Assembly: GCA_951406725.2 (NCBI GenBank)
Contig: OX597827.1
Span: 65,844,001-65,908,000 of the forward strand
From: Octopus vulgaris
Taxonomy: Eukaryota
Direction of reading: 5' to 3'
Length of the DNA stretch: 64,000 nt
Shown: one piece after another, positions 2,188 to 25,084 of the stretch
Layout of the letters: every line of letters starts with the position of its first letter
Position numbering within the stretch: position 1 is the first letter of the stretch
Program-made: the position numbers and the translations under genes
The notes under the pieces: generated by a model
Seen by the model: only the letters and a program-made list of their open reading frames with translations
The model's database searches: none
What the model was told of the DNA's origin: nothing

Positions 2188-2227
2188 AAGAAATTACCGG
2201 TTTCGCGTGTAGCTTTTCAAATTTCTT
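2188..2227 (-). ncRNA. Minimal type-I hammerhead ribozyme, U3-A8 core variant (PLE 3' repeat)
   Basis: Minus strand: aagaaat-TTGAAAA-gc tacac gc-GAAA-ccgg-TA-atttctt, giving a 7-bp stem I, 2-bp stem II and palindromic stem III ACCGGT. Confidence 0.72.
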
Positions 2228-2362
2228 GTGACGTTATGTTTATATTGCATGGATTTATCGTTGTTTTTATTTCCAGGAGATTTCTAAATAAGGGGAGGTA
2301 GTGAGTGATTTTTCCGGTGTAGGGGAGATAATCGCTTAAAAAATTTTTTTCCCATTTCCTTA

Positions 2363-2738
2363 TTAATTTCTCTGTGTCAGTATGTTCGGATGGTTGAGTC
2401 TGGGTTTGTACTTTTCAATGAAGAATGTTTCCTTGTTCAGTCTCATTTGTGTTGATGATCCGAAAGCACATTGGTAAAATGGGAAGATTAAAAATTGTGG
2501 CAGTAGTTGCTTTGCGCATTTCTCAATGTGCTCACTAAAAGGTATCATTCTATATTCTGGGAATGCAATCTGTTGTCGATGCAGTGTGCATCTGCGCCTG
2601 AGTGATAGTCCCGTGGAACCCACGTAGTCTTGGTGGCAGCCCGAGCATTTAATAACATAAATTATGTTTTCAGAGGCACAAGTAAAGTTAGATTTGATCT
2701 TAAATTTCTGTCCTTCTTTAAAGAAGAATTCTGATCCT
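2363..2738 (-). pseudogene. PLE GIY-YIG endonuclease fragment (left arm)
   Basis: Translation FTCASENIIYVIKCSGCHQDYVGST..LRRRCTLH..RLNKETFFI..PRLN matches the GIY-YIG motif order (IY-YVG, R, H, E, N). The N-terminus of the listed ORF 2363..2830 is antisense read-through across the palindrome centre. Confidence 0.88.
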
Positions 2739-2739
2739 G

Positions 2740-3131
2740 GTCCTAACCTATTGGAAGGATCAGAATTCTTCTTTAAAGAAGGACAGAAATTTAAGATCAA
2801 ATCTAACTTTACTTGTGCCTCTGAAAACATAATTTATGTTATTAAATGCTCGGGCTGCCACCAAGACTACGTGGGTTCCACGGGACTATCACTCAGGCGC
2901 AGATGCACACTGCATCGACAACAGATTGCATTCCCAGAATATAGAATGATACCTTTTAGTGAGCACATTGAGAAATGCGCAAAGCAACTACTGCCACAAT
3001 TTTTAATCTTCCCATTTTACCAATGTGCTTTCGGATCATCAACACAAATGAGACTGAACAAGGAAACATTCTTCATTGAAAAGTACAAACCCAGACTCAA
3101 CCATCCGAACATACTGACACAGAGAAATTAA
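2740..3131 (+). pseudogene. PLE GIY-YIG endonuclease fragment (right arm)
   Basis: Same peptide as the left arm and as 22922..23374, 5'-truncated at PNLLEGSEF. Confidence 0.88.
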
Positions 3132-3264
3132 CAAGGAAATGGGAAAAAATTTTTTAAGCGATTATCTCCCTACACCGGAAAAATCACTCACTACCTCCCC
3201 TTATTTAGAAATCTCCTGGAAATAAAAACAACGATAAATCCATGCAATATAAACATAACGTCAC

Positions 3265-3304
3265 AAGAAATTTGAAAAGCTACACGCGAAACCGGTAATT
3301 TCTT
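3265..3304 (+). ncRNA. Minimal type-I hammerhead ribozyme, U3-A8 core variant (PLE 3' repeat)
   Basis: aagaaat-TTGAAAA-gc tacac gc-GAAA-ccgg-TA-atttctt; identical to the other three copies. Confidence 0.72.
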
Positions 3305-3468
3305 TAAAAATTTAAAAATTATGTCATTTTAAGGAAAGGAAAAAAAATTTTTCCAATATTCTCCAGACATTTTGACACAAATATATATATCTTTTAACAT
3401 TTAAGCCTTCTGTCGTTTTTTCACACTTTACTATTTTCTTATATATATATATATATATACATATATAT

Positions 3469-3605
3469 GGCCGTAGGCGTGGCTGCGTTGTAAGTCGCTT
3501 GCTTCCTAACCACATGACTCTACAAGTGCCCTCTAGTATAGCTTCGGGCCAACCAAAGCCATGTGAGTAGATTTGGTAGGTGGAAATTGAAAATATCTCG
3601 TCGAA
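3469..3605 (+). mobile_element. tRNA-derived SINE family A, degenerate 5' part
   Basis: ggccgtaggcgtggctgcgttgtaag...gccatgtgagtagatttggtagg matches the head of the full copies at 31877 and 39569. Confidence 0.7.
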
Positions 3606-3651
3606 TATATATATATATATATATATACATACACACTATCAATCGAATTAT

Positions 3652-3707
<56 letters not shown>

Positions 3708-4022
3708 TGTGTGTGCGTGTATGTATGTTTATATGGAAGGGTGTATGCGTTGTATCTTGCATGTTTCTAGCCCTGAAAAATAGCAGTTCCGTAAGAGATA
3801 ATGATGGAAGAAGTACTGAAATTCTACGCTAAAAAAGAAACCGCCAAAATGATGCTCAGGCATGTCCAGAGTCCAATGACTGGAACGAATAAAAAGTAAG
3901 TAAAATACGTATATAAATGTGTAGGTGACGGAGACAGAGATAGAGAGAGAGGAAATGTGAATGTGAGTCTCCGTCTTACGTATACATGTATGTATGCAGA
4001 CGTATCTCATTTCTTGCATTTA

Positions 4023-4085
<63 letters not shown>

Positions 4086-6332
4086 TATCAATCGAATTCT
4101 ACCAACGGATGGTCACATGTCACATCCAATTCGTGCATTCCTTTAGGTACTTACTTCTCCGTACTGCTTTATAGACGCCATATTTCATCCAAGACACACA
4201 TTTAGAATGATGTCCTTTAAACGATAATTAAATACATACATGATCGTACATATTCTAGGGCATCTCACAGAATCTATTTAATTGGTTGGACATGTTATGT
4301 TTATTTCCGATGGAATATTAATAGGACTCTAAATGCCATGCAGTAAAGCATCGGAATTTATCAAGCAGTAATGGTAATGTATTATGACATATATTCCGTG
4401 CTTGCTTAATTAGATCATTCATATATGCAAAACACTTTTGGCGAAGTGCTGTTGCGGCTGTAAAGATGTAAATTCGATAGATTCGTTTGCAAGCGGAAGA
4501 AGCAAACGATGTAAGTATTTGGGTAATAAACCGAATCATGTTGATTGGCAGTTGTAAAAATATAACACGAAACACAATAATTATCATAATTCTTCCAATG
4601 TTTGCCATACCAGCAGTCTTACATCATCATAAAGAATTATTATAATTCTTCCTCAGTTTGGCATAACAACAGCGTTGCATCAACTCCAGGATTCATCTGA
4701 CATTTTATTTTAATCACCATGAAAGGAAGGCAAATTTGATCTCGCACAATGAAAAGCCACAAAAGCTGTCGCAGAATAACAAAAATACTGTCAGGAGTAT
4801 TATTGAGCAGTCATTCAATGCAACGATATGGATAAGGTTTCCCTCATGTTGCCAGTAATGACAGCGAAATCCGGTTTTAAACACCTTAAGATAAATCGCT
4901 CTTTCCGTCATATATAATATCGAGTTTCCTGAAAAGGAAAGTGTTACACACTGCGCGAAATCTCTAGGTGTTTGATCGCCCAATGTTTTTTACATGGAGC
5001 GCTGCATCATGTAACAATATGCCTATTCAGTTATTTCTTAATCAGTATTTAAGACATTCGATTTAGACTCCATACTGTAGTGATGGAAGCAATTTAAAAA
5101 GAAATGAGTGGCTTTAAACTGTAGTGTTTTTTTCTTTTTCTATGCTTCGTTGGGCACATGTGTGTATGCGTGTTTGCGTGTGTGTGCATAAGCATTTGTG
5201 TGCACGCATGTTTCCGTAATATTCAAAACACACAGAACAACATAAACAAATGTGTCACCTGCCGGTTTTTACACTTAGTTCTTCTACTGCTTATTAGAAT
5301 GACGAGAATTCCCGAATATTTTGCCTGTCTATTTAAACATATAATCTGAAACATCATACATTTCTACGCTTCACGATAACCAAAATTATTGGCAACTACA
5401 ACTGCTTTCAAATATACTTACTGTTACAGGATTTAGCTACCATTGAAATTCGAACCCGAATGTTTACGTCCTACACCCAAAAAATGCGCGAGTAACAGCA
5501 TTACTATATTTAGTAAAACAGAACGATGATAATTGTTACGGTGAGCTGGCAGAAACGTTAGCACGCCGGGTGAAATGCTTAGCTGTATTTCGTCTGCCGT
5601 TACAACATTTCTGTGGTTGATATGTTCTTGTGTAACCAGAAGACTGGCCAAAGCATCTTACCTTGTGTACATTGTGAGAATGACTTGGAAGACCCTTAAT
5701 ACACATGTATCATATCCGGCCATTTCATGATCACTTTTAACATATTGCGTAATTCGCAGTTTTAAAAGAGCTCTCGGGACAAGAAAAAGTCAATATTAGC
5801 TGGGCGATTAATCGAGGCAAAACGGATAGAAGAGAGAATATTTATTAAATTTTAATGCAGGAAATAAGTGAACAGTGTGTGTCCAGAAAAGCATAACATC
5901 TTTTGCAATTTGCATGCCTAACACAGCTGACAGTTGTGATATACAGCTGAGATTTGCGCAAGATAAGCTGCTTCCAGGAATATGTTGATAACATTTGCGA
6001 TATAATGGCGTTCCCTCCAGATCTCAAGAATATGATGTGTCAGATAATGCAGTAACTGTCCTGACTAAAATTTTATCTTAAAATAAAACTCATAGGTTTT
6101 CTTCATGCAATATACAAACAAAAATTTGGTAAATTGAGGGGCGTTACAAATTAGCATTAACAATGCAATTTTCATAATCATTATATACTGTATACACTTC
6201 CAATAACAGCATTATATGTGCTTAATAGTTAGTTGGTGACAAAATAGATTTCAGCAGAAATTGTTCCACCTGTATGTGATGAATATAATTTCAAATTTCT
6301 GTACATACACACACACACATATATATATATAT

Positions 6333-6528
6333 AGGGAGAATTCACGAAAAAAAACAACAACAAAAGACGAAGACAGGTGGTGTACAAAACAAACACATGT
6401 ATCATTATAAAGCTCAGGAATAGAAAAAAGTCTTTTACGTTTCGAGCCTACGCTCTTCCACAGAAAGGAACACAGAAAGAAACAAGGAGAGAAAATAAGG
6501 TTTGTAGTGGCTACCGATCTATCATGGC

Positions 6529-6530
<2 letters not shown>
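6333..6530 (-). repeat. Small interspersed repeat in (TA)n with an HHR-like motif (6432-6467)
   Basis: Reverse-complement homologue of 8925-9090. Motif cttt-CTGTGGA-a-gagc gtag gctc-GAAA-cg-TA-aaag. Confidence 0.6.
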
Positions 6531-6564
<34 letters not shown>

Positions 6565-6567
<3 letters not shown>

Positions 6568-7382
6568 GGTTTGGTCAATAAGTACCCGGATTGGTGCTAT
6601 AAAATCTATGTAGAACACGTACGAATTTTATATTTAATCTCCTTCAGAGTAGTCCTTAATCCAGTGCTGTATTCATTGATGGAAGCATTCCTGGAACTCT
6701 GGGATAATTAGCAGCTGCATCGTCGCATTCGCTTTGATATCCTCGAAGGCCTGAAATCTTCCTTACAAGCGTGATTTGCGTTTTGAAAAGAGGAAAAATT
6801 TGCAAGGGGAGAAATCTAGAGAACACAGTGTCTGTCGAACCTGAGAAATGCTGTGCCTAACTAAAAATTACAGCACAAGCTGCGCTGAATGTGCAGTAAA
6901 GTAGTCAGCTGAACGTAGTTTTGGCACAAACTTGGCAGACGTGCGTCTCATACCGTAATCTTCAGTAGTAATGAATGGACAGAACTGAACCGTAACTAAT
7001 CTGCACATCTGATAACTCACAGATGGTGAGTCGACGATTTCCCCTCACAGATGCACACTCATCTGCGATATATTTCTCAGTACTCATTGTTCTCGTCTCA
7101 TGCACTCCGCTCCATACGCTTTCTGCAACTTTGCGTAGACCTTTCAGCGGGTATCGACAAGATTTTGGCCAAATGTGATGCAGATTCGTGGCCAATGCGA
7201 CGATCACACGCTTCACTCGTTCCCTCCAAGCAAGCACTGCTGTAAACATAGAAAATGAGCTAGAACGTTAAAACATAGTTGGCATGCACTGAACAGAGTT
7301 CAATCTGTGCCAAGTGGCTTAACTCTGCGTGCTTTTTTTTCTTTACTATGGCAACAGTCCGTGTACATTTGGTCCGACCACG
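6565..7382 (-). mobile_element. Decayed, internally deleted mariner-family DNA transposon
   Basis: Imperfect TIRs (cgaggtttggtcaataagtacccggattggtgctata / tatggcaacagtccgtgtacatttggtccgaccacg). Minus-strand remnants GNRRLTICELSDVQISYGSVLSI and GMRRTSAKFVPKL fit the mariner HTH and WVP-type linker. Confidence 0.75.
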
Positions 7383-8274
7383 CAAATATATTTATATGTA
7401 TGTGTGTGTATGTGTGTGTGTGCGTGTATATGTATGTGTGTGTGTGTGTGTGCGTGTGTGTGTGTATGTATGTATGTGTTATCTTGTAACCTTTCAAGAG
7501 GCTGAACGTCGCAGTAGGTATGTCACATTATACAGAAGCATAACATAAATATTTCAGATTTCGTGTTGTTTGACGCCTGGAGACTGAAGCTAATTCCGGG
7601 GAAATTCTTACATTTCCAACATATAATTCCTAACATATCACTGTATACGAAGATCCACGAGCAAAGTAAAGAAAAACTGAAATAAGAGGAAGTCAAACAT
7701 GAAAGTAATATCCAATTCCTCTATTTAATATCATAGTTCGTATTACAACAAAGAGATAGTATGCCGGATGAAAAGAAATTTATTGAAATAAGACAAACAA
7801 TTTTATATAAGTATTTGAATATTAGCAGGATAAAATATTATGAATTTTACAGAAGACATATATTATGAATTTCATAATACGAAGACGAATTTTATATAAT
7901 GTAAAACCGTTAAAACACGGAGTTTTGTTTCATGTAATAATATTTTATTGTAAACAAAATAAATATAGTAACAAATTAACAAAATGCTCGTATAATAATG
8001 ACGGAAAGTAATGAAAGATAAAGTATAAATATATAATTCTATAATGAATAATTTTATTGAAAACAGTAGCAAGAGGAGCAGCGACATATTATTGTATTTC
8101 GACGAATAAAATTAAATCTATTCGATACGCAAAAAATTGAAATGAAATATTAATTGGACGTTCGACAGTATATCATAAATGATGATCAGAATCTTAACGC
8201 CGGGTACAATCTAATGAAATGACCATAGTGATTCGGTCATGTGTATCTCGTTGGAGCATTCATTATGTAAACGT

Positions 8275-8341
<67 letters not shown>

Positions 8342-8345
<4 letters not shown>

Positions 8346-8920
8346 ATAAATATTAGGGAATAAATCCAAATTTACAGGGGAAAAATCAGATTTAGGATTA
8401 AATCCAATTTTATAGTAAAATATTATATAATATTAATTAGAGACAAAACCACTATTTTGTAAAACAAACAAGGAAAGACTTAATCAATATATAAAATTTT
8501 CATAAAAAGTAAAAAAAACCCACCACTACAATTGTTTCATGTCCTCAATGACAATCTTCAGGTGGATTTCCGATCTAAAATATCAATACATTAAAATATA
8601 ATTTTAAAATAATTTCAAAATAATAAAAAAATATAAATATATAATCTATATATAACCTATATATAGTCCATATATAATCAATATATAATCTAAAATCAAC
8701 CCTATCAACAATTAAATATAAAACAAAAAGATAAATAAACTATATATACACACATACGCATACACTTATAACTAAGTATATATAACCATATCTAAACACA
8801 TACACTAACTCACACACCTATATATATATATCCCTATACATACACATAAAAACGTCTAGGCAACGATACATAAATAAATAAATAAAATAGCCAAATACTT
8901 CAACACATTACTTATTCATA
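8342..8920 (-). repeat. AT-rich interspersed element next to (TA)n, probably derived from a PLE terminal repeat
   Basis: Contains an HHR at 8523-8565. Its left end (gggaataaatccaaatttacagggg..atttaggatt) recurs at ~40732-40780. Confidence 0.5.
8523..8565 (-). ncRNA. Minimal type-I hammerhead ribozyme, canonical core
   Basis: Minus strand: ccac-CTGAAGA-t tgtc attgag gaca t-GAAA-caattg-TA-gtgg; palindromic stem III ACAATTGT, GUA cleavage triplet. Confidence 0.8.
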
Positions 8921-8924
8921 CTCC

Positions 8925-9090
8925 CTCACACATTTTTTCTCCCCTTGTTTTTTCTCTGTCCCTTTCTGTAGAAGAGCGTAGGCTCGAAACATAAAAGACT
9001 TTTTTCTATCCCTGAGCGTTATACTAATATATCTGTTTGTTTTGTACAACACCTGTCTTCGTCTTTTGCTTTTTTCGTAAACTTTCCCTA
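8925..9090 (+). repeat. Second copy of the 6333-6530 repeat, with HHR-like motif at 8962-8997
   Basis: cttt-CTGTAGA-a-gagc gtag gctc-GAAA-ca-TA-aaag, followed by acacctgtcttcgtcttttg shared with the 6.4-kb copy. Confidence 0.6.
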
Positions 9091-9419
9091 TATATATATA
9101 TATATATATATATATTTCTACATATCTATTTTCTTTCCTCCACTTCTCTCTCTATTTTGTATCCCATTTAAATTAACTGTTACTTAACCATCCTCTCACA
9201 CCGTTTCCGATAAAAGGATATAATTAATAAATATCCTGGAAACAGCTATAAGACCTTCTATCTATAAATGTTCTATCTACACAGCATTGTTTGTTTTATC
9301 CCATTACACAAAAAAATCGTATATATGTATATGAGTGTGTGTGTGTATGTATATATGTGTGCATGTATATATGCACATATATTCCCATATATGCATGCAT
9401 GTACATATATATGTCTACA

Positions 9420-9488
<69 letters not shown>

Positions 9489-9509
9489 GCATATATATTT
9501 ATGCTTATT

Positions 9510-9700
9510 CTTTTATTTCTTTTACTTGCTTCAGTCATTTACTGCGACCATAATTTAGTCTAATAAATCGAACCGGGACTTATTCTGTTTAAGCCTAGTT
9601 CTCATTCTACCGGATGCTTTTCTCGAACCTCTAAGTTACGGGAACATAAACGCACCAAAATCGGTTCTCAAGCGATGGCGGGGACAAACACAGACACACA
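9510..9700 (-). mobile_element. SINE family A, 3' half
   Basis: cttttacttg..cagtcattt and ctaagttacggg..acataaac match the family A tail. Confidence 0.7.
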
Positions 9701-9716
9701 TGCATATACATATATA

Positions 9717-9900
9717 CGGTGTCTGATCATTAATTATCGGGTCTGTTGTCATAGTAACGAAGCTAAAGCAAGCACAGAGAAGCCTAGAACTCTGCTTTGC
9801 ATGCCAAATAAATCTTGACATTCTAGCTTATTTTCGCTGTTTGTAGCTGTGCTTGAAAGGAAGGTGTGTAGTGTGTAATCGTGAGTTCTGGAGATCATAC
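9717..9900 (+). mobile_element. Mariner terminal fragment (same family as 6565-7382)
   Basis: cggtgtctgatcattaattatcgggtctgttgtcatagtaacgaagctaaagcaagcacagag is the reverse complement of the 7320-7382 end. Confidence 0.6.
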
Positions 9901-10644
9901 TCTATTACTGCAATATGTCCCGCGGTACGCTGACATTATATATATTTTTTCGGAATGTACTTTGAATTCCTTCCACACTGGATCCTTGTCTGTAAAGTAG
10001 CACTGGTCGACCTAGTTCTCAAGTATATATATATTTTTTTCGTATTTAGCATATGGACTTCTATAGCTGAAAACTTCTATGACTGAAAACGGTTAATATT
10101 TTGATAATTAGTTTGAGACGTAATCAAATTTATTTTTCTAATTTGATAACAACTTTAGATACCAATATATAATTTCATATTATATGTAGTTATCTAAAGT
10201 TCCTCGATGTCTTGAGGGTGCAACAACGTCTCTGCAATTTCTAGCTGTTTGGCGATGTTTGTCACAATTATATTAATATGTTCCACGCATAGAAATAAGA
10301 CAACAATCTCGTGTCACGATTGGAAATAGGTCAATAATGACGTATCGCTATGTATGTTAGCTATAAGGTTATCTTTGAAACTGCATTCTTTACACGTGTA
10401 ATTTTAGGATCATATATATAGAAATCGATGTATTACTGTACGTGTGCGTCTCATCACAGACACACGCTCATTTATATGTATAAACGTGTATATATGCATG
10501 CACGAACAACTGGGTATCGCTATATCTATCGCACTCCTTCATTCTCTCTCACTAAATAAACATACTATCACACACACATATACATGTATAAGTGAATATG
10601 AATATACATACACACTCACATATACATATATATATATATATATG

Positions 10645-11220
10645 CTGCGATAGTCAAACTGTCGCCGTTTTATATTTCTTATTTCGAGCATGCACATTGT
10701 TTTTGATTTAGTCGACTACACAGTATAGTAGGGTCAGTTGGGCACCCTCCGCGAGAAAAATAGCACCATGACGAAGTTAACTTTGTCAGAAAATTGAAAA
10801 AATGACATGCTGTACTGCTTGGTATTCGCACTCGAAACTCCAATACTAACATTTAATAATTTTTTGCTGTCAACCTGAGGACTGTGCAGATGATTCTGAA
10901 AGAGTTGGATGGGTCTAATTATGATTGCACTGCTACGACAGATCCGAAAACTCTGATCGTATTGACAAGAAAAGAACTGAATTTATTTGTGAAATCCAGG
11001 CCATGTTTGACAACGATCCCTCCAAGTCAATCAGGTCCATCGTCAGGGACATGGGTGTGTGTGAGTTTCTTATCAGGCAGCTAGTGAATGATAACATTAG
11101 GTATTCCTCATTCAAAATGAGAAAGGGGCAATTTTATCACAAGGCTTGAAGAACAAGAGGAAAGACCATGGTACGAATGAGTTCAATGAACTCAAGCTTC
11201 CCCTCCAAACGAAAAACCTT
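10645..11220 (+). mobile_element. Decayed Tc1/mariner-superfamily transposase fragment (N-terminal HTH)
   Basis: MFDNDPSKSIRSIVRDMGVCEFLIRQLVNDNIRYSSFKMRKGQF fits the 'NP..SIR.IAR..GVS...IR.....DL...SYK' HTH pattern; frameshifted. Confidence 0.65.
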
Positions 11221-12200
11221 GCGAAACACTCCCGTACAGTTCTTTCGGATAAAGAAATATTACCCGTAAACTGCGAATATTTCTTTGGTTGCTTGTGAGG
11301 CATTTTTCCCTTTACGGATAAAGAAAAGCATCAAGTGCCGAAAATGAACATTATCTTCCATTTTAAAGAGTTACAGATTTAACATAGGTTATAGGAACGT
11401 AACCCTTCTTCCACGAAAATATAGCTTAAACTGTGCTCTAAATGGAGGTGAAGTCAAATCCTGTTTTATGGACTCAACCATGTTCTAAAATAATTCGAAA
11501 GTGAAGCTACTATAAATTGGCACGAACTTTCCGGACAACTCAATATATGTGCTCCTGTAGCGGTATAGCCGCCATGATTCCTTAATAAATTCATGTATTT
11601 AATTCCGAGCGGTAGGTTCATTTTCATTTACCGTGTCAAATAAAGCCTCATCCATTACTAATGAATAAGAGAGCATCTATTTGATTGCTCGAAAATAGTG
11701 AAACACTCGATAAATCGCCCTAAAGAAAAAGAAAAACTCAACTAAGTCGAAATGAAATATATCTGTTAAATATAAAGACAGAGTAAAACCAATATATCAC
11801 TGAAGTGAATCGAGCAGAGACATTGATTTAATTCTTCTCACGATCACGACGAATACATTGACCAGTCTGACACTGTGGCCTCGACCTAACAAGAGACAAT
11901 CTATGTAAAAATCATAACAGCCAGCCTTAAAAGCGGACATATTGAATAATGCAGTCTGGAAAACAATATATGCCCGGATGAACAAGGCATTGTCTAAGTG
12001 TCATTGACTCTTATCATAGTTAATGACCGCTGTGTTCGCTATAACGCAAAATATATGAAAGTAATTTCTTTTGTTCGTATTACAGAAAAACTTGCTTTTA
12101 AGCAAAAATATTGCTGGCCATCAAATAGATGTGACTATCATTCAATGTGTTTGTGTTCGTGTGTGTTCATACATGTGTATATATACATATACATGCATAC

Positions 12201-12294
<94 letters not shown>

Positions 12295-12355
12295 AAACCC
12301 ATATATATATATACTGATAAACGTATGTATCTCTTTATGTATATATCTATTTGCC

Positions 12356-12410
<55 letters not shown>

Positions 12411-12546
12411 TTATATGAATGTACGTATGTATATATCAAAGGTTGAACAGATATAACTCTGCTACGCCTAAACTTTTCTCTTTATTGTTTTCTGTCTGCT
12501 TAACCATTGATACATCCATATATTGCAACGCTCACCCTGTTTGTTT

Positions 12547-12583
<37 letters not shown>

Positions 12584-13228
12584 GGTGGTGCAATAAATAA
12601 ATTGTCGTCTAGATTACGTAAAATGTTTCGATTAAAGGCGGTGCTCCAGCGTGGCTGCAGTCATATGACTGAAAGAAATAAAAGAAATACAAGATTATTT
12701 GTGAGTGTATGTGTGTGTGTATGTGAGCCATTTTACGTACATACACACACATATGTCTATAAGTGTGAGTGAGCAAACGATACCAAGTGTTACTGCAACG
12801 TCACAACTACAGTTCTAGCCGTGTTGTTCATCCAGTCTTTACATAACTTAACACCGACAAAACTTTTTTTCCTCCCACGTAAAGTTTGCTGCCACTAATG
12901 TGTTAATACACCGTTAACAATGATTGAGCTAGAAATACTAAACAAAATCCTATATTATGTGTGTGTAGTACAAAATGTGATTAACTGATGCTATTAGACA
13001 CACTTTCCCTGTAATTTGGCGCCAAAGTAGCTACAAATCCCTGCCAACATCCTGTTCGAGCAAGTACAAAGAAAAGAACTTGTCTCGCTTATCACATAAT
13101 TGAGACCAGGCGATTTGATAAGATTTGCCAATAGACACCTAAGATCTAGAAACCAACTTGAATTTGGCTCAAATCCGTTACTTTTCCCTCGATATCTGAT
13201 GAGATATGATTATGCTCTTTTACTGTAT

Positions 13229-13575
13229 TACTCTTTTACTTGTTTCAGTCATTTGACTGTGGCCATGCTGGAGCACCGCCTATAGTCTAGCAAATCGAAC
13301 CCAGGACTTATTCTTTGTAAGCCTAGTACTTATTCTATCGGTCGTGAACACACGTAAATACGCGGACGTAAACACACCTGCATCGGTTGTCAAGCGATGT
13401 TGGGGGGGGGGGGGAACAAACACAGACACACAAGCATATATATACATGCACATATATACGACGGGTTTCTTTCAGTTTCCGTCTACCAAATCCACTCACA
13501 CGGCTTTGGTTGACTCGAGACTATAGTAGAAGACACTTGCTCAAGGTGCCACGCAGTGGGACTGAATCCGGAATC
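13229..13575 (-). mobile_element. SINE family A, 5'-truncated
   Basis: Reverse complement of the 31877-32288 body and tail. Confidence 0.8.
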
Positions 13576-13900
13576 CATAAAAATATGTGTATAAAACTGT
13601 AAAATGAGAGGAAATGGATTTTGAGCTTGAACAGGTCTCCATGTCGTATATCGTTATAATTATTACTAATACATATAGCCCACAAAATGTTACCGCCCAG
13701 TGAAGCAAACAGGGAATTACACATGGGAGGAATTAACTTTACAGTGTGAATGCCAACTAATTTTAGTAATAAACGTTAAAAACTGATCGATGCGGTCAAC
13801 CGTAACCTGCAATACAAACGAGAGCCTCCACCACATCCGCCCGGATGATATATCCCACCAAACTCACATGTAAATATATACATACATATATACATACATG

Positions 13901-13967
<67 letters not shown>

Positions 13968-13969
13968 TA

Positions 13970-14172
13970 TTACGGAGATGTACTTGCACAGCAAGTGGCC
14001 TGATCTGAGATCGTGTGCTGGAACGAAAACAATTGCAGCGTGGAAGGTGTTTCTAACCCATTTAAGAAACACACAAAAGCCGTTAGATTCACTTCAACAT
14101 TTGAATATAATTTGCCAAAATATTTTCGTCGCTTTGAAACCGCGACCTGTTTGCTGAAAAAATTGCGTGGTG
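13970..14172 (-). mobile_element. Single-arm, older copy of the 42873-43213 mini-element with a decayed G3-C8 HHR (14111-14160)
   Basis: ttacggagatgtacttgcacagcaagtg..aattgcagcgtggaaggtg aligns to 42873-43070. Stem II gtcgc/gcgac and GAAA-atat-TT are kept but the core has decayed to GCAAACA. Flanked by (TA)n. Confidence 0.75.
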
Positions 14173-14221
14173 TATATTTATATATATATATATATGGCAC
14201 CCATATACGCACACAGATATG

Positions 14222-14268
<47 letters not shown>

Positions 14269-14902
14269 GTATATACACGTAGCAAACAGCAGATTTTATT
14301 CTTGCATATAATATGCAATATTGTCGAACAAGGAAGATCACCTTCCCCTTAGTTACCTCCGCCTAAACACAAACATGCCAACAGAAATTGCTCTGTTTCT
14401 ATTGTGGCTTCAGAAATTATGTTTCTTATCATACAATGTATATTATGTCAACTAATTTCAGGTTATTTCTAGTATTTCATAGAAACAATAATTTCTTACA
14501 TATATTTGTGAATTACATTCTCTCAGTACAATACTTAACATATGATATTGCCGCACAATGTTTCCGATTTGATCTCAGATGAAACAAATATCAAGGTAGG
14601 AGACTTACAAGAGGGCAGCAATTTCGAACTGCCTCATTCACCAATCACATAAATTGGGCATGGAAAATGTGATTACACTAGTGGTGCCCCAGCATGTACC
14701 CAGCTTTAGGTTGAAACGTGTAAAAGTACATTACAATATAAGTATCTCAATTCTCCCTCAGCATATATATCGATACACACACACATATATATCATATCCT
14801 TATATATATATGCATATGTGCATGCATGCATATGTATGTATCAACTACTATCTCTCTACCTATGTATGTATGTATCTATCTGTCTCCCCTCTCTCTTTCT
14901 GC

Positions 14903-14970
<68 letters not shown>

Positions 14971-16195
14971 GTTGATTTCACACAACATAGTTTTCCTTTC
15001 ACCGTCTGTGTAAGATTATGTTAGCGCCTGTATTTGAAAAGGTTACCTACTGACATAGTACTTACTTGCTTCGCATTCAACAACGATTTCTGTGTACGTA
15101 TACAATACTCCAATAATGGAACATATCGATGAAACATATACAACACACACCTTCCAACCATGCAGCAACAAATTAGTCTAGCTGTCAATCTTATGTCAAA
15201 CCAACTAGATTCCAACTGTGATTTTTCACCTGTGTTTCCCATATGTCTGTATTAAAACCAATAAGACACGGAATCTCAAGAGATTAATCATTCTCTGAAG
15301 CAATACACATGGACAACGTTGTGGTAAATGTAATTCGTTGTTGAGTGAAAGTATATTGTACCAACGAAAAAACATAAAGATAAAAGTACTATTAGCTATC
15401 TCTGTTAGATTGGCATCCTAAATATCAGCATTAAATTTATGTACGGTCAATTCACTAAAGAGTATATTCTTAATAAAAACTAGACTGAAATTAAATTATC
15501 TTTGTCGTGTCACCCAGAAGGAATGGCTTTGTAAGTGATGTATTTTTTACGTGACTGCTTCTCTTTCCGTTTCGAAATTTGCGATCTTTATCTCACTCTA
15601 GAGATATTTCGACGTGTTACATGTTTAAAACTTCATTCTCTGTCTGCTATATAATGCAGAGAAAATTCCCACAGAACGCAATATCGGAATCCATAACTCA
15701 CATTCTTGAATAACAATATATTGATATTAGAAGAATAAGGAAGTTACTTTATTCGGAAAGAACAATTCTTGTTATTACAAGAAATGGAACTGTAATATAT
15801 TTCACAACACAACGTTCATTTCCTCATTTAGAACTAAGAAACTTAAAAATCTCCTGTGTAGTGTCTTGAACGTAGTGAAGTTTTTCCTTGACCCATTTTA
15901 CGAATATCGTGAAAACCGTCTCTATATGAGAGGTATTTACGACTGTAATCGTTCATTTAACATTCTTTGGAACCAATTAAAACCATCGCCAATTAGAAGA
16001 AAAAGTACTACATTTTATAGACTTGTTGAAATTAGTCTTAGCCTCGTCCTCCGCTTATTCGCTTAGAAAATATCCTACGCCAAATCAACTTATACAAATC
16101 GCAATTACCAACCTGATAGGTAATATATAATCATAACAACAGCAACAACAACGACAATAATAATGATAATAATAATAATAAAAATAATAATAATG

Positions 16196-16250
<55 letters not shown>

Positions 16251-18618
16251 GAATAATAATAATAGTAAGAAGAAGAAGAAGAATAAGAATAATAATGATG
16301 ATGATGATAACTTCTTAAATTGGCACAATATCACAATTTTATTAGGCAATTAAAATGAACCCCTGCATAACCGGTGCTTATTTTATTAGTTACTCCTACC
16401 TGAAATATAAATTAATCTCGACGTAAACAGGGCGAAAATACTAAATAATTGACGGCCTTTTGCCCGATACTTCTAATGAGAGTAAGACAACTATAGTGAC
16501 AAAGAAGATATTGTTAGCGATAATAAATATTCTTTTATTTGCTACAGTGGTATCACATTCACTTACAAATATGTCATATAAATTTACCGCAACCAATCAT
16601 GCAGCTACGTTGTGTTCGGCCTATATACTTCTAAGAGACATCAGTTGTTCCAACAATGGTATTACCTCTTTCTGAATTAAAGTGCGGTTCGAAAGTGGGA
16701 TTTCCTGATTGCAAGGCAAATTTCTTCATAATTTCGCCATGCCACGCCTACTCTTGGTCTCTAAATGTATATTAAACGAGGAGGCCAGGACAGAATACTA
16801 CATAAAAGACTTCCCACGTCGGAAATTGATTTGGACCACCGCGTATGGAGGATGAATGCTTTCTACGACAACCACATCGCACGCTGCGAGGTTGCTGTCA
16901 ACGTAAACCAATCTTCTGACAGGGTTCAAGAACTAGCCCTTACACACATATCTATTTTACCATGTGCACTCATCTTCCATTTCCCGCATGCCAAATAACA
17001 GCCGTTCGACAAGCTGTTGTTTGCAATGAAAATGTTACAAATGCCTGGTCACTAATTGTGTCCGTGAAGAACAATTTCGTTGAGCAGCGCACAATTTGAG
17101 TTGGAGATACTGACAGCACTTGCATGCCTGTGGAGCTTACAATGAAGCTGCCCTAAATCTCGCACAATTCAGAAAGAAAGGCAGAAACTCCGGATTTTCG
17201 GAGTAACAATGATACACATAAAGCTAAGCTTGTTCCCAGGTTTTAGGCTTTTAAAAATCGTCCATATCTTAAAACTCGTATGCATTGTCTTAAATAAACT
17301 GGCATGCCATATGTCCTAGTCAACTGAAAATGCTGTATACATCCTAGTTAAAGTGACTACTTATGTGTTCGAAAACTTATGCTGCAGCTGCCAAATGAGT
17401 CTAAAAAAACAGTGATCGCATTTTGATGAACCATTGTTTTTCAACATATTTAATATGATATTATGACTGGGCAGAATCCCAGTATTTTCTTTACAGCTGT
17501 GAACTTCGAAAACAAAAAAAAGCTGTTCCCCGACAAAAGCGCAGCTGTTTTTCAGCACTTAACACTATATAGGGTGAATATAACGCAAAGAACATTGGTC
17601 AAAAGAAAAGTATAAATACAATCCGATCTATGCCCACCGTAGCTGCTATAATACCGATGTCTCTTTTGATTTTATGTCTATCGCAAGGCTTTATGCGAAA
17701 GCTACAATAAAACTTATTATCATGAGTCGTGTACCTGAGCAAAAATCTCTAGTTCCATCGCGCTGTGTACTGGAACACCAATATATAGACGCATCATTGA
17801 GAAATAAACAATAGCCATTATGTTTCGATGATGAGGATTTCGCTTCTAAACCTCCTTCGTTCAATTAGACTGATTCCTTGCTATTTATCAAAAAGAATAA
17901 TTCTACATGCCCAAAGGGCAGCATATGTATGTCGCCGGCTTATCAGTATTCTCTTCAACAAATAGAAATCCAGTAAGGCTACTTACGATATTCCTCTTTC
18001 ATTTTCCACCATTTTCCAATTTGTTTAACAAGTTTAACAAAGAATTCAGCGGTGTTCTTCATGCTGTTGAAGCTCAGAATTTTTGTGTAAGTAGTTCAAC
18101 TGCTCTGTTTTATTTGTACTTTTTCAAATCTAAGTTTTATATATTTTAACATGTTGCTATAGTCGGCAGGGTCACCAGCGTTGCTGGTGTTACAGGTTCT
18201 GTTTGTTAGACTAGTGGTGGATATATTTCGCTGTTAACAATCTTTGTATCACGCTAGCTAACGCTCAGCATTCAGCTGCTAACACAATAACACAGTAAGT
18301 TTCAGATTTTGGAGTTTGTGTGTTAGAAAGAATTTGTATCTTCGTGCTGACGTGTGTGAAGAAGTTGCAGTGATCAAAAACAAAATTTTCGAAGCAAAAT
18401 ATTTTAGAAATTTTCAATTTCCACTCGACTGCCGTTTGGCTCATGAACAAAACAAGCAACTACAATAGTGTCATTGTTAAGTGTACACAACTGATTCCAG
18501 AAAACGACCGATACGTGACTTCTGGATGGTTAGCCACGAGTAACGATTATAACATTAGCAGCACTAGCACCAGCGACTAAAAGACCACAACAATAATAAT
18601 ATTAATAGGCAATTCCAA

Positions 18619-18710
<92 letters not shown>

Positions 18711-20042
18711 GGTTTAGGCTAATTTAGGCCAATCACACGCACACACACATGTTTCTGTAGTTTCTTTCGGAAGAGGTAATCTCTTGAAATTAAATTTGTA
18801 AAAGTTGAGTAGACGCTGGTTGTTTTGCTTCTAGATAGTTATATCCATTGACACTGACGGCGTAGAATGCTTTCCCTTTAAAGGAATATGCCGTAAATAT
18901 TTTTAAATGGAGGAGTAAATAATTAGGTCGTTTCTAAATTAAAAAATTCTGTTGGAAATAATGTAGTAAAAGTGTAGTCGCCTAGAAAATATCTACCTCG
19001 CATATTCTAGTATGAATCGGCTGTCTTATGAAATTGTGACTGAGATATTTGAAAATATGCACCCATTGTCAAACAGTGATATTTGAAATGTGGTTTCAGG
19101 TTATGATTTCACTGAAAAAAGACATTTTATTCAGACGACATATTATTCAGACTCATGGCAAATACGTTATTTTGTAACCCAACAAAAGTAACCCATGACA
19201 CGTGAGATTGATGCAATACTAGCCATGTCACTCGATGCATACAGGACCATCAACTTCCGAACGATAGGCAACCAAGCTATTCAGGACAGAATCTTCTACG
19301 AAGATACAAGATGTGCTAAAATATGCTTCACAAACGGTAACCATGCTTTCTGGGTATTCTATGAATTCTGACAGATGTCACTGTTTCACGCGCATACGAA
19401 CAATTGAACACTCACGGCATACCACCCCATCCACAGTGGAGTGGATGCTTTCTACAAGTAACCAAAATAAGGTGATCCTACCTCCGCAGATGGCACATTG
19501 TCAAGATATAATGATCTTGCAGAAATGAATATTGAAAATCTGGCAATGCTAACAATTTTTATTAGAAGTATTTATTCTAAGATATTAGGAGACACTCCTT
19601 ATAACTGTGTTACAATTCGAGCGTGTTTTTTATATTTATTATATTAATGTTTTGTTTTACTCCGCCATATACCACAAAATATATATCGTTCGGTATTTGA
19701 TTTGTCTAATCTAAACCAAGAATTATCAATCCATTATCCTGTCATTTCACATCATAATAAACATCAACTGTTTTGCTTCTTAAATATAAATTACGAGCAA
19801 AATTGCCAACTGAAATCTCATAGCGATTCTAAATAAATTTTATGCATTATCTGTAACTTGAAATATGTTACTACGTAATAATTATGTTAACAGAAGATTT
19901 CAACCATATCATTATCTTTTTTAACAAGTAAACACAATCATAAGGTAACTTACACACACTCACAAATATACGTATAATCTTAAATATACACACATATACG
20001 CTTATCCATCTCTCTCTCTCTCTGTCTGTCTCTCTCTCTCTC

Positions 20043-20097
<55 letters not shown>

Positions 20098-20653
20098 GAA
20101 ACTATTTTTAGGACAATGGTTAAAATTCCAATTTGCTTTATTTTTTAATTCTTTTTCTTAAATACATACATACATACATACATACATAATACACACATAC
20201 ATTATCTTTTTGGTTACTCGTTTGAATGTGTTTATATATTTTTACACTGTAAACTTTATATTCCTCAATCATTTTATGCTCGTGGAGAAATACACTGAAT
20301 ATCCTGTAAAACAAATATTTATAACTGGCGACGTGGTTTTAAAAGAAACAGCCGTATTTATATATGTATTGTTGTATTTATGTCTGACAAAATGGCTGAC
20401 CGTTAGAAAGGAGAGACACACAAATAAGAAAGAAGAAAGCAAAGGACCACTGATGAGGTCACAGAAGTGTGACAAAAGAACTCTGGCCGAAATAAGATTA
20501 AGATTAATATAAAAAATATATAAAGCTGAAGCAAATTAACACCAAATATATAGTGCTTGTGTTTTTCTTGGCTAAACTGGCAATATGAACATTCCTAAAT
20601 ACAACAATATCTCTTTCAACACACGATTTCTCATCAAGAATCTTGCAAAACAA

Positions 20654-20693
<40 letters not shown>

Positions 20694-20724
20694 AATTATG
20701 TATGTATGCATGTATGTATGTATA

Positions 20725-21439
20725 TTGGGTTGCTAACAAAGTTCCCGCCGTTTTTATTAAATTTTAAAGGACTAATAAATAATAACAACTAATTATTCAA
20801 CTTATTCCCATCGTTCAACATTACCTCGTTGATAAAAGTAACACGATTTCGACTCGAAAAAGTGACCAAACCAAGCTCTCAATTCTGCATCAGTATTGAA
20901 CGAATCTCCACGCATAGCATTTGAAAGAGATCGAAAGAGGTGAAAATACGTTGGTGCCAAATCAGGAAAGTGCGGCGGGTGTAGCAGCACTTCACAGCCA
21001 TGTGATTGAATAGATTCTATGGTCATATTGGTGATATGAGGGCGGGCATTGTCGTGCAGCAGAAGAACTCCATGCTGCTGATGAGGTATTTTTTTCTTGA
21101 ATAGCCGTGTTGAATTGTTCCATCTGTTGAACATAGAGTTCCACATTGACCGTTTGGTTCCGTTCAAGCAATTCGTAATGGATAATCCCTTCTCAGTCCC
21201 ACCATACGCACAACATCGTTTTACGCGGGTGAAAATCTTGTCTCACGCCCGGTGTTGCTTGTAAACCAAGGCTAAGTCATTCCTTACGCTGCTTCATATT
21301 GAGGCACAGGGACCATTTTCCGTCGCTATTCCAAAATGATTCAAAAATAGATATCTCGTAAAAAAATAGATTCTAAAATTTAAAAACGCAGTAAATTCCA
21401 AAATTTTAAGAAACGGCGGGAATTTAGTTGCCAAACCAA
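20725..21439 (-). mobile_element. Internally deleted mariner element with TIRs and TA target duplication
   Basis: 29-bp imperfect TIRs at 20725-20753 and 21411-21439, with TA on both sides. ORF 20802..21167 has LLLHDNARPH and HPPHFPDLAPTYFHLFRSL (mariner HDNARPH / YSPDLAP.D motifs). Confidence 0.88.
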
Positions 21440-21495
21440 TATATGTTTGTGTGTGTGAGTGTGTATATATATATGCTTGTGTGTGTGAGTGTCTG

Positions 21496-21552
<57 letters not shown>

Positions 21553-21845
21553 TTTGTGTTTGTGTGAGTGTGTGTTTACTTTGGTGGTGCACTTGTCAGG
21601 CAAATGATGTAATCTGACACTTGATGTTGAAACTACAACGACTAGAGTGAGGAGAAACATATTAAATATTCAAAAGCACAAACAAAAGATAACATCAGTT
21701 TTTATTTTGTGTCAAAAATTTCGTCGATCGGACTTCCATTTAGCTATTGACACGAATTGCTTGCAACTCAATACATACATTTATACATACATACATACAT
21801 GTATACACAAACATACATGCATACACAGATTGACAAACGCATACA

Positions 21846-21936
<91 letters not shown>

Positions 21937-21938
<2 letters not shown>

Positions 21939-22079
21939 GACGGGCTTCTTTCAGTTTCCGTCTACCAAATCCACTCACAACTATAGCAGAAGATACTTGC
22001 CCAAAATGCCACTCAGTGGGACTGAACCGGAACTATGTGGTTGGTAAAGAAGCTACTTACCACACAGCCATACTTGCAC

Positions 22080-22081
<2 letters not shown>
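21937..22081 (-). mobile_element. SINE family A, 5' half
   Basis: cttctttcagtttccgtctaccaaatccactcacaa..agctacttaccacacagcca. Confidence 0.75.
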
Positions 22082-22131
<50 letters not shown>

Positions 22132-22256
22132 ATATATATATATGTTTTGCATGCATATATATATATACACGCACATACGTACATACACACAAACAGACAC
22201 TTTCTCTCACATACATGCACACACACAGACACACTCACACATGTATATATACTGGA

Positions 22257-22295
<39 letters not shown>

Positions 22296-22297
22296 TA

Positions 22298-22450
22298 TGA
22301 TGGTCTTCCTTCAGTTTCCGTCTACCAAATCTACATACAAGGATTTGGTCAGCCTAAGGCTATACTAGTAGACACTTGCCGAAGGTGCCACGCAGTGGAA
22401 CTGAACCCGGAACCATTTGGTTGGTAAGCAAGCTACTTACCACACAGCCG
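22298..22450 (-). mobile_element. SINE family A, 5' half (followed by a family B fragment to ~22575)
   Basis: cagtttccgtctaccaaatc..gtgccacgcagtggaactgaacccggaaccat..cttaccacacagcc. Confidence 0.75.
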
Positions 22451-22573
22451 AATTCTGAGTTCAAATTCCGCCGTGGTCGATTTTTGCCATCTGGGGTCCA
22501 TAAAATACGCACCGATGGAACACTGGAATTGATGCAATCTACGACCCTACACTCCAAAATTTCAGGAATTGTG

Positions 22574-22613
<40 letters not shown>

Positions 22614-22746
22614 AAAATAGTAAAGTGTGAAAAAACGACAGAAGGCTTAAATGTTAAAAGATATATATATTTGTGTCAAAATGTCTGGAGAATATTGGAA
22701 AAATTTTTTTTCCTTTCCTTAAAATGACATAATTTTTAAATTTTTA

Positions 22747-22786
22747 AAGAAATTACCGGTTTCGCGTGTAGCTTTTCAAATTTCTT
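22747..22786 (-). ncRNA. Minimal type-I hammerhead ribozyme, U3-A8 core variant (PLE 3' repeat)
   Basis: Identical motif to 3265-3304, on the sense strand of the element. Confidence 0.72.
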
Positions 22787-22921
22787 GTGACGTTATGTTT
22801 ATATTGCATGGATTTATCGTTGTTTTTATTTCCAGGAGATTTCTAAATAAGGGGAGGTAGTGAGTGATTTTTCCGGTGTAGGGGAGATAATCGCTTAAAA
22901 ATTTTTTTTCCCATTTCCTTA

Positions 22922-24528
22922 TTAATTTCTCTGTGTCAGTATGTTCGGATGGTTGAGTCTGGGTTTGTACTTTTCAATGAAGAATGTTTCCTTGTTCAGT
23001 CTCATTTGTGTTGATGATCCGAAAGCACATTGGTAAAATGGGAAGATTAAAAATTGTGGCAGTAGTTGCTTTGCGCATTTCTCAATGTGCTCACTAAAAG
23101 GTATCATTCTATATTCTGGGAATGCAATCTGTTGTCGATGCAGTGTGCATCTGCGCCTGAGTGATAGTCCCGTGGAACCCACGTAGTCTTGGTGGCAGCC
23201 CGAGCATTTAATAACATAAATTATGTTTTCAGAGGCACAAGTAAAGTTAGATTTGATCTTAAATTTCTGTCCTTCTTTAAAGAAGAATTCTGATCCTTCC
23301 AATAGGTTAGGACATGTTGCACAGTTCGATCTACCACATTTTTTTACTTTTGCATCCGTAATTTTAGAAGACAATTTTGCCTTTGTGAGAATCTTTTTAA
23401 GTGATTTAGGCTGTTTGTAGCTTTTAATGATTTGGTGTATGTTTAGAATTTCCCTTAATTTTGGGTTTTTATGAAGTATTGGTAAATTCTGGGTGATGAT
23501 GGTGAAGGCTTCTTTGTTTCTGGGGTTGTATGTAGATATGTAAGGTAGTATTTTCGGGGAAGGTGTGTTGTTGTGTTGAACTTTTCTTAAAGTTTCTATG
23601 TTGATTTCTGTTGCACGTCTGATCCCATCCTCTATGAGTTGAGCTGGGTAATGTCTGTCAATTAGGGTGTTTTTTGAGTTCTTGCAGTCTAAAGTTCCTG
23701 GTATTTTGTTCTGACACTATTGTGCATATCCTTCTTGCAAGGTTGAAGGGTATGTTTGTTTTAGTGTGTCTTGGGTGGCATGAATTAAAAAGAAGGTATT
23801 GTTTGGCGTCTGTGGCTTTGTAAAAAATGTCTGTTTCTATTTTAAGGTTAATTTTTTTAATTAGTATATCCAAGAACGGAGCTCCTTTTGGTTGTATTCC
23901 ATTGTGAACTGTATATTTGGGTTTATGCTGTTCAATAGGTTTTTAAATTTTAGGAGTTTATCTATGTTTTCATTCCAGAGAATGAAACAATCGTCTAGGA
24001 ATCGTTTCCAATTCTCTTTTATGTATTGAGAGAGGGAGTTTCCAAAGATTGATAGAGATTCCTGGTAAATGATTATTTCCATGTATCCCATTGTTAAGTT
24101 CGCAATGACTGGTGCTGCCCTTGTACCCATAGCAATTCCGGATTTTTGACGGTAAAATGTATTGTCAAACATGAAGTGGTTATTGTGTAGGATGAATTCA
24201 ATTGATTTAGTAATGAATTCCTTACTGATCCTTTTTGGTATTTCTTCCGGAAATTGGTCTAACCAGAATTGTATTGCCTCCAGTCCATAATTATGAGGTA
24301 TACTGGTATACAAGTTGACTACATCAAATGAAACCAGGATTGTTTCTTCCTTGGTTTTTTTTGAAGGTGGTTTAACATATCTAAGTCATCTCTGATATGG
24401 CTATCGATATGTTTAAGGAAGGGTTTCAAGAGGATGTCCATAAGTAGACTTAGTCTGTGTGTTTCACAGGTTGGGCCAGCTACAATGGGTCGTAGTTTTA
24501 GGTCCCCCGGATTAGGTGTGTGTATGTA
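22922..24528 (-). pseudogene. PLE reverse transcriptase + GIY-YIG endonuclease ORF, 5'-truncated, three single-base frameshifts
   Basis: Motifs in order: LKLRPIVAG, LVSFDVVNLYTSIP, YRQKSGIAMGTRAAPVIANL, WKRFLDDCF, IQFTME, (LPF)LDI, DIFYKATD..QYL.FNSCHP, then GIY-YIG. Shifts at ~24363, ~23879 and ~23672. Confidence 0.93.
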
Positions 24529-24909
24529 TTGGAAGGATCAGAATTCTTCTTTAAAGAAGGACAGAAATTTAAGATCAAATCTAACTTTACTTGTGCCTCT
24601 GAAAACATAATTTATGTTATTAAATGCTCGGGCTGCCACCAAGACTACGTGGGTTCCACGGGACTATCACTCAGGCGCAGATGCACACTGCATCGACAAC
24701 AGATTGCATTCCCAGAATATAGAATGATACCTTTTAGTGAGCACATTGAGAAATGCGCAAAGCAACTACTGCCACAATTTTTAATCTTCCCATTTTACCA
24801 ATGTGCTTTCGGATCATCAACACAAATGAGACTGAACAAGGAAACATTCTTCATTGAAAAGTACAAACCCAGACTCAACCATCCGAACATACTGACACAG
24901 AGAAATTAA
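24527..24909 (+). pseudogene. GIY-YIG fragment in the inverted pseudo-LTR
   Basis: LEGSEFFFKEG...NHPNILTQRN identical to the minus-strand copy. Confidence 0.88.
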
Positions 24910-25044
24910 TAAGGAAATGGGAAAAAAATTTTTTAAGCGATTATCTCCCCTACACCGGAAAAATCACTCACTACCTCCCCTTATTTAGAAATCTCCTGGA
25001 AATAAAAACAACGATAAATCCATGCAATATAAACATAACGTCAC

Positions 25045-25084
25045 AAGAAATTTGAAAAGCTACACGCGAAACCGGTAATTTCTT
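25045..25084 (+). ncRNA. Minimal type-I hammerhead ribozyme, U3-A8 core variant (PLE 3' repeat)
   Basis: Stem I 25045-51/25078-84, core TTGAAAA 25052-58, GAAA 25068-71, predicted cleavage after A25077. Confidence 0.72.

What the first reader, a model, noticed from the sequence alone, without database searches (positions are those of the whole stretch)
2188..25084. Penelope 3' repeat contains a hammerhead with a compensated U3-A8 core (4 identical copies)
Seen at 2188-2227(-), 3265-3304(+), 22747-22786(-) and 25045-25084(+): aagaaau-UUGAAAA-gc(uacac)gc-GAAA-ccgg-UA-auuucuu, ~135 nt after the ORF stop. CUGANGA is replaced by UUGAAAA, changing both partners of the C3-G8 tertiary pair. Established: the 3-8 pair tolerates compensatory swaps, and PLE minimal HHRs with palindromic stem III work as dimers. 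Inference: this is a functional variant that canonical-motif searches would miss.
Basis: partly seen in the sequence, partly recalled or inferred. Interest (0 to 1): 0.72.

Follow-up and report, generated by a model that had tools for sequence, protein, structure and literature searches.

The report
Known-variant hammerhead in Penelope-like retrotransposon
Four identical copies of a small hammerhead-shaped RNA motif sit at the ends of a young jumping gene; its swapped core pair is already published, but related jumping-gene families in this genome use two further swapped pairs, and a few broken copies begin right at the predicted cut, which likely means the RNA does sometimes cut itself in cells.

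Summary
The four 40-nt motifs are present and identical. They are two head-to-head insertions of one young Neptune-like Penelope-like element (PLE) family with at least 547 copies, not four independent cases. The reading as a minimal type I hammerhead with U3-A8 holds, but it is published: Cervera and De la Peña 2014 report U3-A8 in schistosome PLEs, including the same UUGAAAA core. The scan noted U3-A8 before on other DNA of this genome. Added here: (1) of 3123 genomic matches to this scaffold, 1934 are U3-A8, 901 A3-U8, 189 U3·G8 and 2 C3-G8; a sister scaffold has 97 G3-C8. A3-U8 and G3-C8 each follow their own endonuclease clade, and stem I covaries. (2) 10 of 26 break points near the motif fall at the predicted cut (p about 0.002, hand-classified), against 547 copies that read through it: tentative sign of occasional cleavage in vivo. 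Against: U3·G8 and extra-nucleotide subfamilies also spread, no cleavage was measured, and the window's copies are inverted, so they cannot pair in cis. Natural A3-U8/G3-C8 PLE cores were not found in my searches, but Lünse et al. 2017 was unavailable.

The parts
25045..25084 (+). Minimal type I hammerhead motif: stem I 25045-51/25078-84, core U3-A9 25052-58, 2-bp stem II 25059-67, GAAA, CCGG, U16.1, A17=25077; predicted cut 25077|25078
22747..22786 (-). Identical motif, A17 at 22754
3265..3304 (+). Identical motif, A17 at 3297
2188..2227 (-). Identical motif, A17 at 2195
22605..24529 (-). 5'-truncated PLE copy: frameshifted RT and GIY-YIG endonuclease (residues 277-811 of the 811-aa frame in L057), CxxxxCxxC linker, 3' UTR; ends 149 nt after the cut site at (TA)n
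24527..25267 (+). Inverted 5'-truncated copy: endonuclease end, 3' UTR, hammerhead and 42-nt tail; ends 191 nt after the cut site at (TA)n
2004..2738 (-). 5'-truncated arm of the second insertion, with tail (+191 end)
2740..3446 (+). Inverted arm of the second insertion, without tail (+149 end)

Best explanation
The motif is the minimal type I hammerhead of a young Neptune-like Penelope-like retrotransposon, with U3-A8 in place of the C3-G8 core pair, and it likely cuts after A17 only weakly, as a dimer or with protein help. Shown: its place in the pseudo-LTR, the covariation, and insertion ends 149 or 191 nt past the cut site. Inferred: a tandem transcript (3996-nt unit, L051) brings two motifs together through the ACCGGU palindrome; reverse transcription starts at the two downstream sites and nearly always reads through an uncut or re-ligated motif; on the few cut templates it runs off at nucleotide +1 and jumps to another template, which leaves copies that begin at the cut. 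The four window copies are truncated inverted products and are predicted to be inactive in cis.
For: RT and GIY-YIG matches upstream (RVT_1 above its cut-off, GIY-YIG below). 13 family representatives: 3-8 pairs in 13 of 13 (AU 5, UA 4, GC 3, CG 1), all 7 stem I pairs show two-sided changes, 89.5% of cells paired against 27-39% when slid. Genome table 1934 UA, 901 AU, 189 UG, 2 CG, 1 GC, 96 other, of 3123, reversed control 0; 97 G3-C8 on a sister scaffold. A3-U8 and G3-C8 map to separate endonuclease clades. Two-site dimer -14.1 kcal/mol against +3.1 for the active monomer fold. 10 of 26 break points in -4..+10 fall at -1/+1 (p 0.002); L123 and L131 jump from +1 to elsewhere in the unit. A published PLE hammerhead needs protein and tolerates G3-C8.
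Against: No cleavage was measured. 547 copies read through the intact site against 10 that start there. U3·G8 and extra-nucleotide subfamilies, and six checked copies with a broken palindrome, also exist. Stem II is only 2 bp. Break points were classed by hand; A/T microhomology blurs -1/+1/+2, and with three positions p is 0.013. Replication is weak: 6 of about 17 in sister subfamilies (p about 0.03) and 2 of 5 in an A3-U8 family (p 0.15). In Anolis, hammerhead mutants did not affect insertion in vitro and no RNA-seq reads ended at the site.
Confidence: 0.68

Rival explanations
1. The motif is a hammerhead by descent but no longer cuts in this family. It rides along, and the pile-up of copy starts at +1 comes from a transcription start site or from A/T microhomology.
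For: Copies overwhelmingly read through the site. Close subfamilies with U3·G8 or an extra nucleotide amplified to about 170 or more copies. Craig et al. note that lacking a canonical hammerhead does not hinder Naiad spread.
Against: Watson-Crick pairing was restored at least twice by double changes between families, which implies selection on the tertiary pair. The equally A/T-rich positions +4..+10 hold about one break each. Only 1 of 10 junctions has G at -1, the letter a copied cap would leave (cap copying is recalled knowledge).
Confidence: 0.22
2. The fold is kept for a structural role, such as binding the element's protein or positioning the two downstream reverse-transcription starts, with cleavage incidental.
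For: The two start sites lie a fixed 149 and 191 nt downstream. The Anolis hammerhead cuts only when protein is bound.
Against: In that system the minimal template for insertion began downstream of the hammerhead core and core mutants inserted normally. The 3-8 pair is needed for the catalytic conformation (established knowledge).
Confidence: 0.08
3. The resemblance to a hammerhead is chance.
For: Fold z-score -0.37; no Rfam hammerhead hit; the genome patterns were derived from this sequence, so copy number alone proves nothing.
Against: Stem I and the 3-8 pair, which the patterns left free, covary across families whose proteins are only 35-65% identical.
Confidence: 0.02

Closest known systems
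U3-A8 minimal hammerheads of Cercyon PLEs, Schistosoma mansoni (Cervera and De la Peña 2014, PMC4209133; read parts 1-2 of 4 of the text and part 2 of 3 of supplement 2)
   Same: Type I minimal hammerhead in the pseudo-LTR, U3-A8 core; the supplement row S. mansoni(4)* has the same UUGAAAA, and Saccoglossus(1)* has U3·G8; palindromic stem III; about 1,300 U3-A8 hits reported.
   Different: Here stem II is 2 bp, with no extra nucleotide between A9 and G10.1, stem I is 7 bp and stem III has a CCGG insert. No A3-U8 or G3-C8 row was seen in the supplement text I read.
PAc hammerhead of the Anolis Poseidon element (Frangieh et al. 2024, PMC11167929; read parts 1-2 of 4)
   Same: PLE hammerhead upstream of two reverse-transcription start sites that define the tail; 3-8 compensation tested in vitro.
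   Different: Natural core is C3-G8, single ORF, Penelope/Poseidon clade; no in vivo ends found at the cut.
Natural U3-A8 hammerheads (Perreault et al. 2011, PMC3088659; passages)
   Same: First natural U3-A8 covariation; insertions next to position 3 impair cleavage.
   Different: Those examples are not PLE motifs in the passages read.
Neptune/Nematis EN+ PLEs (Craig et al. 2021, PMC8557442; introduction and passages)
   Same: C-terminal GIY-YIG, CX2-5CxxC linker, inverted 5'-truncated copy, tail at one end, (TA)n targets, optional frameshifted ORF1.
   Different: No tree with reference elements was built, so Neptune versus Nematis is not settled.
Short PLE hammerheads that cleave as dimers (Lünse, Weinberg and Breaker, RNA Biol 14:1499; not held, seen only as cited in PMC6765202)
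   Same: Dimer cleavage of PLE hammerheads with a reduced stem III.
   Different: Unknown; its large variant set may already include A3-U8 and G3-C8.

Membership tests
Minimal type I PLE hammerhead | Core N3-UGA-N-N8-A ... GAAA ... UH with a 3-8 Watson-Crick pair | tested here: met
   U3-A8, GUA triplet; pair kept in 13 of 13 representatives
Minimal type I PLE hammerhead | Stem I closes the motif; stem II begins G10.1-C11.1 | tested here: met
   7-bp stem I with two-sided changes at all 7 pairs; G10.1-C11.1 was fixed by the search pattern, so it is not independent evidence
Minimal type I PLE hammerhead | Palindromic reduced stem III that allows a dimer | tested here: met
   ACCGGU; modelled dimer -14.1 kcal/mol, active monomer +3.1
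Minimal type I PLE hammerhead | Located in the pseudo-LTR; tandem copies on one strand exist | tested here: met
   135 nt after the ORF stop; same-strand pair 3996 nt apart in L051; not in the window itself
Minimal type I PLE hammerhead | Extra nucleotide between A9 and G10.1 (2014 consensus) | tested here: not met
   A9 is followed directly by G10.1; some published rows also lack it, so it is typical, not required
Minimal type I PLE hammerhead | Self-cleavage at N17 | not testable with these tools
   Only an indirect genomic footprint
EN+ Penelope-like element | RT followed by C-terminal GIY-YIG with two cysteines between GIY and YIG | tested here: met
   RVT_1 E 3.8e-7; GIY-YIG E 0.002-0.009, below cut-off; IIY-x3-C-x2-C-x3-YVG visible
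Neptune/Nematis clade | CX2-5CxxC linker before the endonuclease | tested here: met
   CGRSNCATC
Neptune/Nematis clade | RT phylogeny with reference elements | not tested
   No reference set was fetched

The most novel reading that the evidence does not exclude
One PLE radiation in this genome has almost abandoned the canonical C3-G8 core and cycled through all three other Watson-Crick pairs plus U3·G8, and its broken copies record cleavage in vivo: reverse transcription that starts 149 or 191 nt downstream runs off at the cut. That would be genomic evidence that PLE hammerheads cut in the germ line, and that full-length insertion needs an uncut tandem or re-ligated circular RNA while cutting aborts it.
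Probability: 0.35. Interest if true: 0.6.

Novelty: new member of a known kind. Interest (0 to 1): 0.33.

Why it matters
The U3-A8 swap itself is ordinary. Two side results are useful. A search tied to CUGANGA would find 2 of 3123 motifs on this scaffold, so PLE hammerhead counts from canonical descriptors can be far too low. And whether PLE hammerheads cut in vivo is open (no in vivo evidence in the 2014 paper, no reads at the site in the 2024 paper); mapping the 5' ends of truncated copies is a cheap genomic test, and here it gives a tentative positive.

Tried and rejected
Rfam scans gave no hammerhead family for the motif or for the canonical tandem repeat in L076. Monomer folding was not above shuffles. 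Sequencing runs: no RNA holder listed on record; the four runs laid were contigs only, which cannot show RNA ends; no difference at 25052 or 25057 was listed at the 10% threshold. The G/C-rich sequence joined to +1 in L127 matched no Rfam family. Six checked AGGTA rows first suspected as junctions were point variants. The hammerhead assigned to the divergent element in L032 lies 730 nt downstream and may belong to another repeat; the tree was rebuilt without it and kept the same clades. Four loci with under 75 aligned residues were dropped from the tree (29 of 33 kept, 28); the tree has no outgroup. The break-point test in an A3-U8 family was too small (5 breaks). Literature: 'hammerhead'+'A3-U8' gave 0 papers; variant-name searches gave only the 2014 paper, a metal-ion paper and one unrelated paper; octopus and cleavage-site searches gave nothing on point in the listings. 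Lünse et al., Arkhipova et al. 2017 and Przybilski and Hammann 2007 were not held; supplement file 1 of the 2014 paper was not searchable and its figures are text only.
Full report
Observation. The four stretches are identical and parse as stem I (7 bp), UUGAAAA, a 2-bp stem II with a 5-nt loop, GAAA, CCGG, UA, stem I. They lie in arms 99.3-99.9% alike that form two head-to-head insertions, 2004-3446 and 22605-25267, each flanked by (TA)n. Upstream frames match RVT_1 above its cut-off and GIY-YIG below it. The 40-mer folds no better than shuffles and Rfam has no hammerhead hit, as expected for a motif without a stable stem III.

The element. A DNA search of the own genome gave 1726 candidates, 40 scored, all 98-100% identical. 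Fetched copies show an upstream frame of about 450 aa overlapping an 811-aa RT-endonuclease frame (L057), a CxxxxCxxC linker, and a tandem unit of 3996 nt between two same-strand motifs in L051. The linker, tail, inverted truncated copy and (TA)n targets match the description of Neptune/Nematis PLEs in Craig et al.; no tree with references was built. The window's longest arm covers residues 277-811 with frameshifts.

Prior knowledge. Cervera and De la Peña describe U3-A8 in Schistosoma Cercyon PLEs as a variant their descriptor missed, with about 1,300 hits. Their supplement lists UUGAAAA in S. mansoni(4)* and UUGAAGA in Saccoglossus(1)*. Perreault et al. reported natural U3-A8 in 2011. Frangieh et al. 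tested C3G, G8C and the double mutant in an Anolis PLE hammerhead: singles are dead, the double is partly rescued, cutting needs the element's protein, insertion in vitro does not need cutting, and no RNA-seq reads end at the site. That any Watson-Crick pair at 3-8 works in vitro is recalled from Przybilski and Hammann 2007, of which I saw only the title.

Covariation in this genome. With positions 3, 7 and 8 free, the scaffold gives 3123 matches and 0 for the reversed control: U3-A8 1934, A3-U8 901, U3·G8 189, C3-G8 2, C3 or G3 with any 8: 45, including those 2 and one G3-C8, A3 with non-U: 45, and 9 U3-pyrimidine by subtraction. A sister scaffold gives 875 matches with A, G or U at 3, 97 of them G3-C8. 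These counts are copies, not events, and may include non-autonomous repeats. Among fetched loci, A3-U8 and G3-C8 motifs often lie about 170-310 nt after a same-strand endonuclease match of about 30-65% identity, while many short copies have none. In 13 hand-picked representatives (extra-nucleotide families left out, one canonical tandem repeat included), 3-8 pairs in 13 of 13 and all seven stem I pairs change on both sides. An unrooted protein tree groups A3-U8 (support 98-100) and G3-C8 (81-88) copies separately from U3-A8, so at least two double changes occurred; U3·G8 appears twice, both times with an extra nucleotide before position 3. Canonical C3-G8 with the same CCGG occurs mainly in 353-359-nt tandem repeats among the first 100 of 281 rows.

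Mechanism. ViennaRNA gives -14.1 kcal/mol for a two-site dimer through ACCGGU and +3.1 for the active monomer fold. Of 56 motif-bearing copies examined (some counted twice; L001-L030 were chosen for long ends), 14 end at about +149 after the cut, 39 at +185 to +200 and 3 run further; in 10 of 10 inverted pairs from the pattern-selected loci and the window, one arm ends at +149 and the other at +185 to +191. This matches the two start sites of the Anolis element, and means the template normally contains an uncut or re-ligated motif: 547 copies read through the site.

Footprint of cleavage. I searched for copies lacking A17 before nucleotide +1. All 5 of 5 were breaks at +1, none a point change. 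A window not centred on the site (-4..+10, 75 rows) held 26 break points by hand count, 10 at -1/+1; flanks were read for 25 loci, and 8 of the 26 were classed from short matches only. Against a uniform spread p is 0.002; it is 0.0009 without internal deletions and 0.013 if +2 is included. The upstream window -18..-5 held 5 clear and up to about 7 doubtful breaks among 24 rows. L123 runs from +191 to +1 and then joins unit position 1910; L131 joins an inverted internal piece; L127 joins foreign sequence. Sister subfamilies gave 6 of about 17 at the site (p about 0.03, no flanks read), an A3-U8 family 2 of 5 (p 0.15). This fits run-off on a cut RNA. A transcription start at +1 or microhomology bias is not excluded; only 1 of 10 junctions has G at -1.

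Against function. No cleavage data exist here. Subfamilies with U3·G8, an extra nucleotide or a broken palindrome amplified. The window's motifs are on opposite strands within each insertion, so a transcript would carry one sense and one antisense copy and would be predicted to form a long hairpin instead of a dimer.

Novelty and verdict. Natural A3-U8 or G3-C8 cores in PLE hammerheads were not found in searches, but the most relevant survey was not held. Earlier notes of this scan report U3-A8 several times in this genome, four core versions in a retrozyme family, and copies starting at a predicted cut in another element; these are unchecked notes, seen after my own counts and first break-point tests except. 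Verdict: real, a new member of a known kind, interest 0.33; the cleavage footprint is the part worth following.

Noticed in passing
window 43016-43063 (-) and 43083-43130 (+): Inverted pair of a different minimal hammerhead with a G3-C8 core (GUGAACA), 5-bp stem II, AAUAUU palindrome and 6-7-bp stem I, in a short repeat flanked by (TA)n.
   Followed up: partly
window 62336-62930 (+): Decayed PLE linker/endonuclease fragment, 32% identical to the main family; no hammerhead picked up by the window scan.
   Followed up: no
L074-L080 (G000:C1:20000779-20006041): 353-359-nt tandem repeats with a canonical C3-G8 hammerhead and the same ACCGGU palindrome, in a head-to-head array; retrozyme-like.
   Followed up: partly
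L051, about 1500 nt after the upstream cut site: ORF1/ORF2 overlap with a U-rich slippery-type heptamer; a -1 frameshift is likely, the downstream structure is not established.
   Followed up: partly
L139, L140, L142-L145: Six copies share one change that breaks the stem III palindrome, suggesting a small sub-lineage that spread without it.
   Followed up: partly
L127:1533-1700: A short copy starting at +1 is joined to an unusually G/C-rich sequence with no Rfam match; possible template switch to a cellular RNA.
   Followed up: partly
L032:5316-5363, L043: Another U3-A8 hammerhead with a 4-bp stem II in a repeated stretch of about 220 nt; its parent element is unresolved.
   Followed up: partly
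window 20802-21242 (-): Frame resembling a mariner-type transposase C-terminus (by eye; recalled resemblance, not tested).
   Followed up: no
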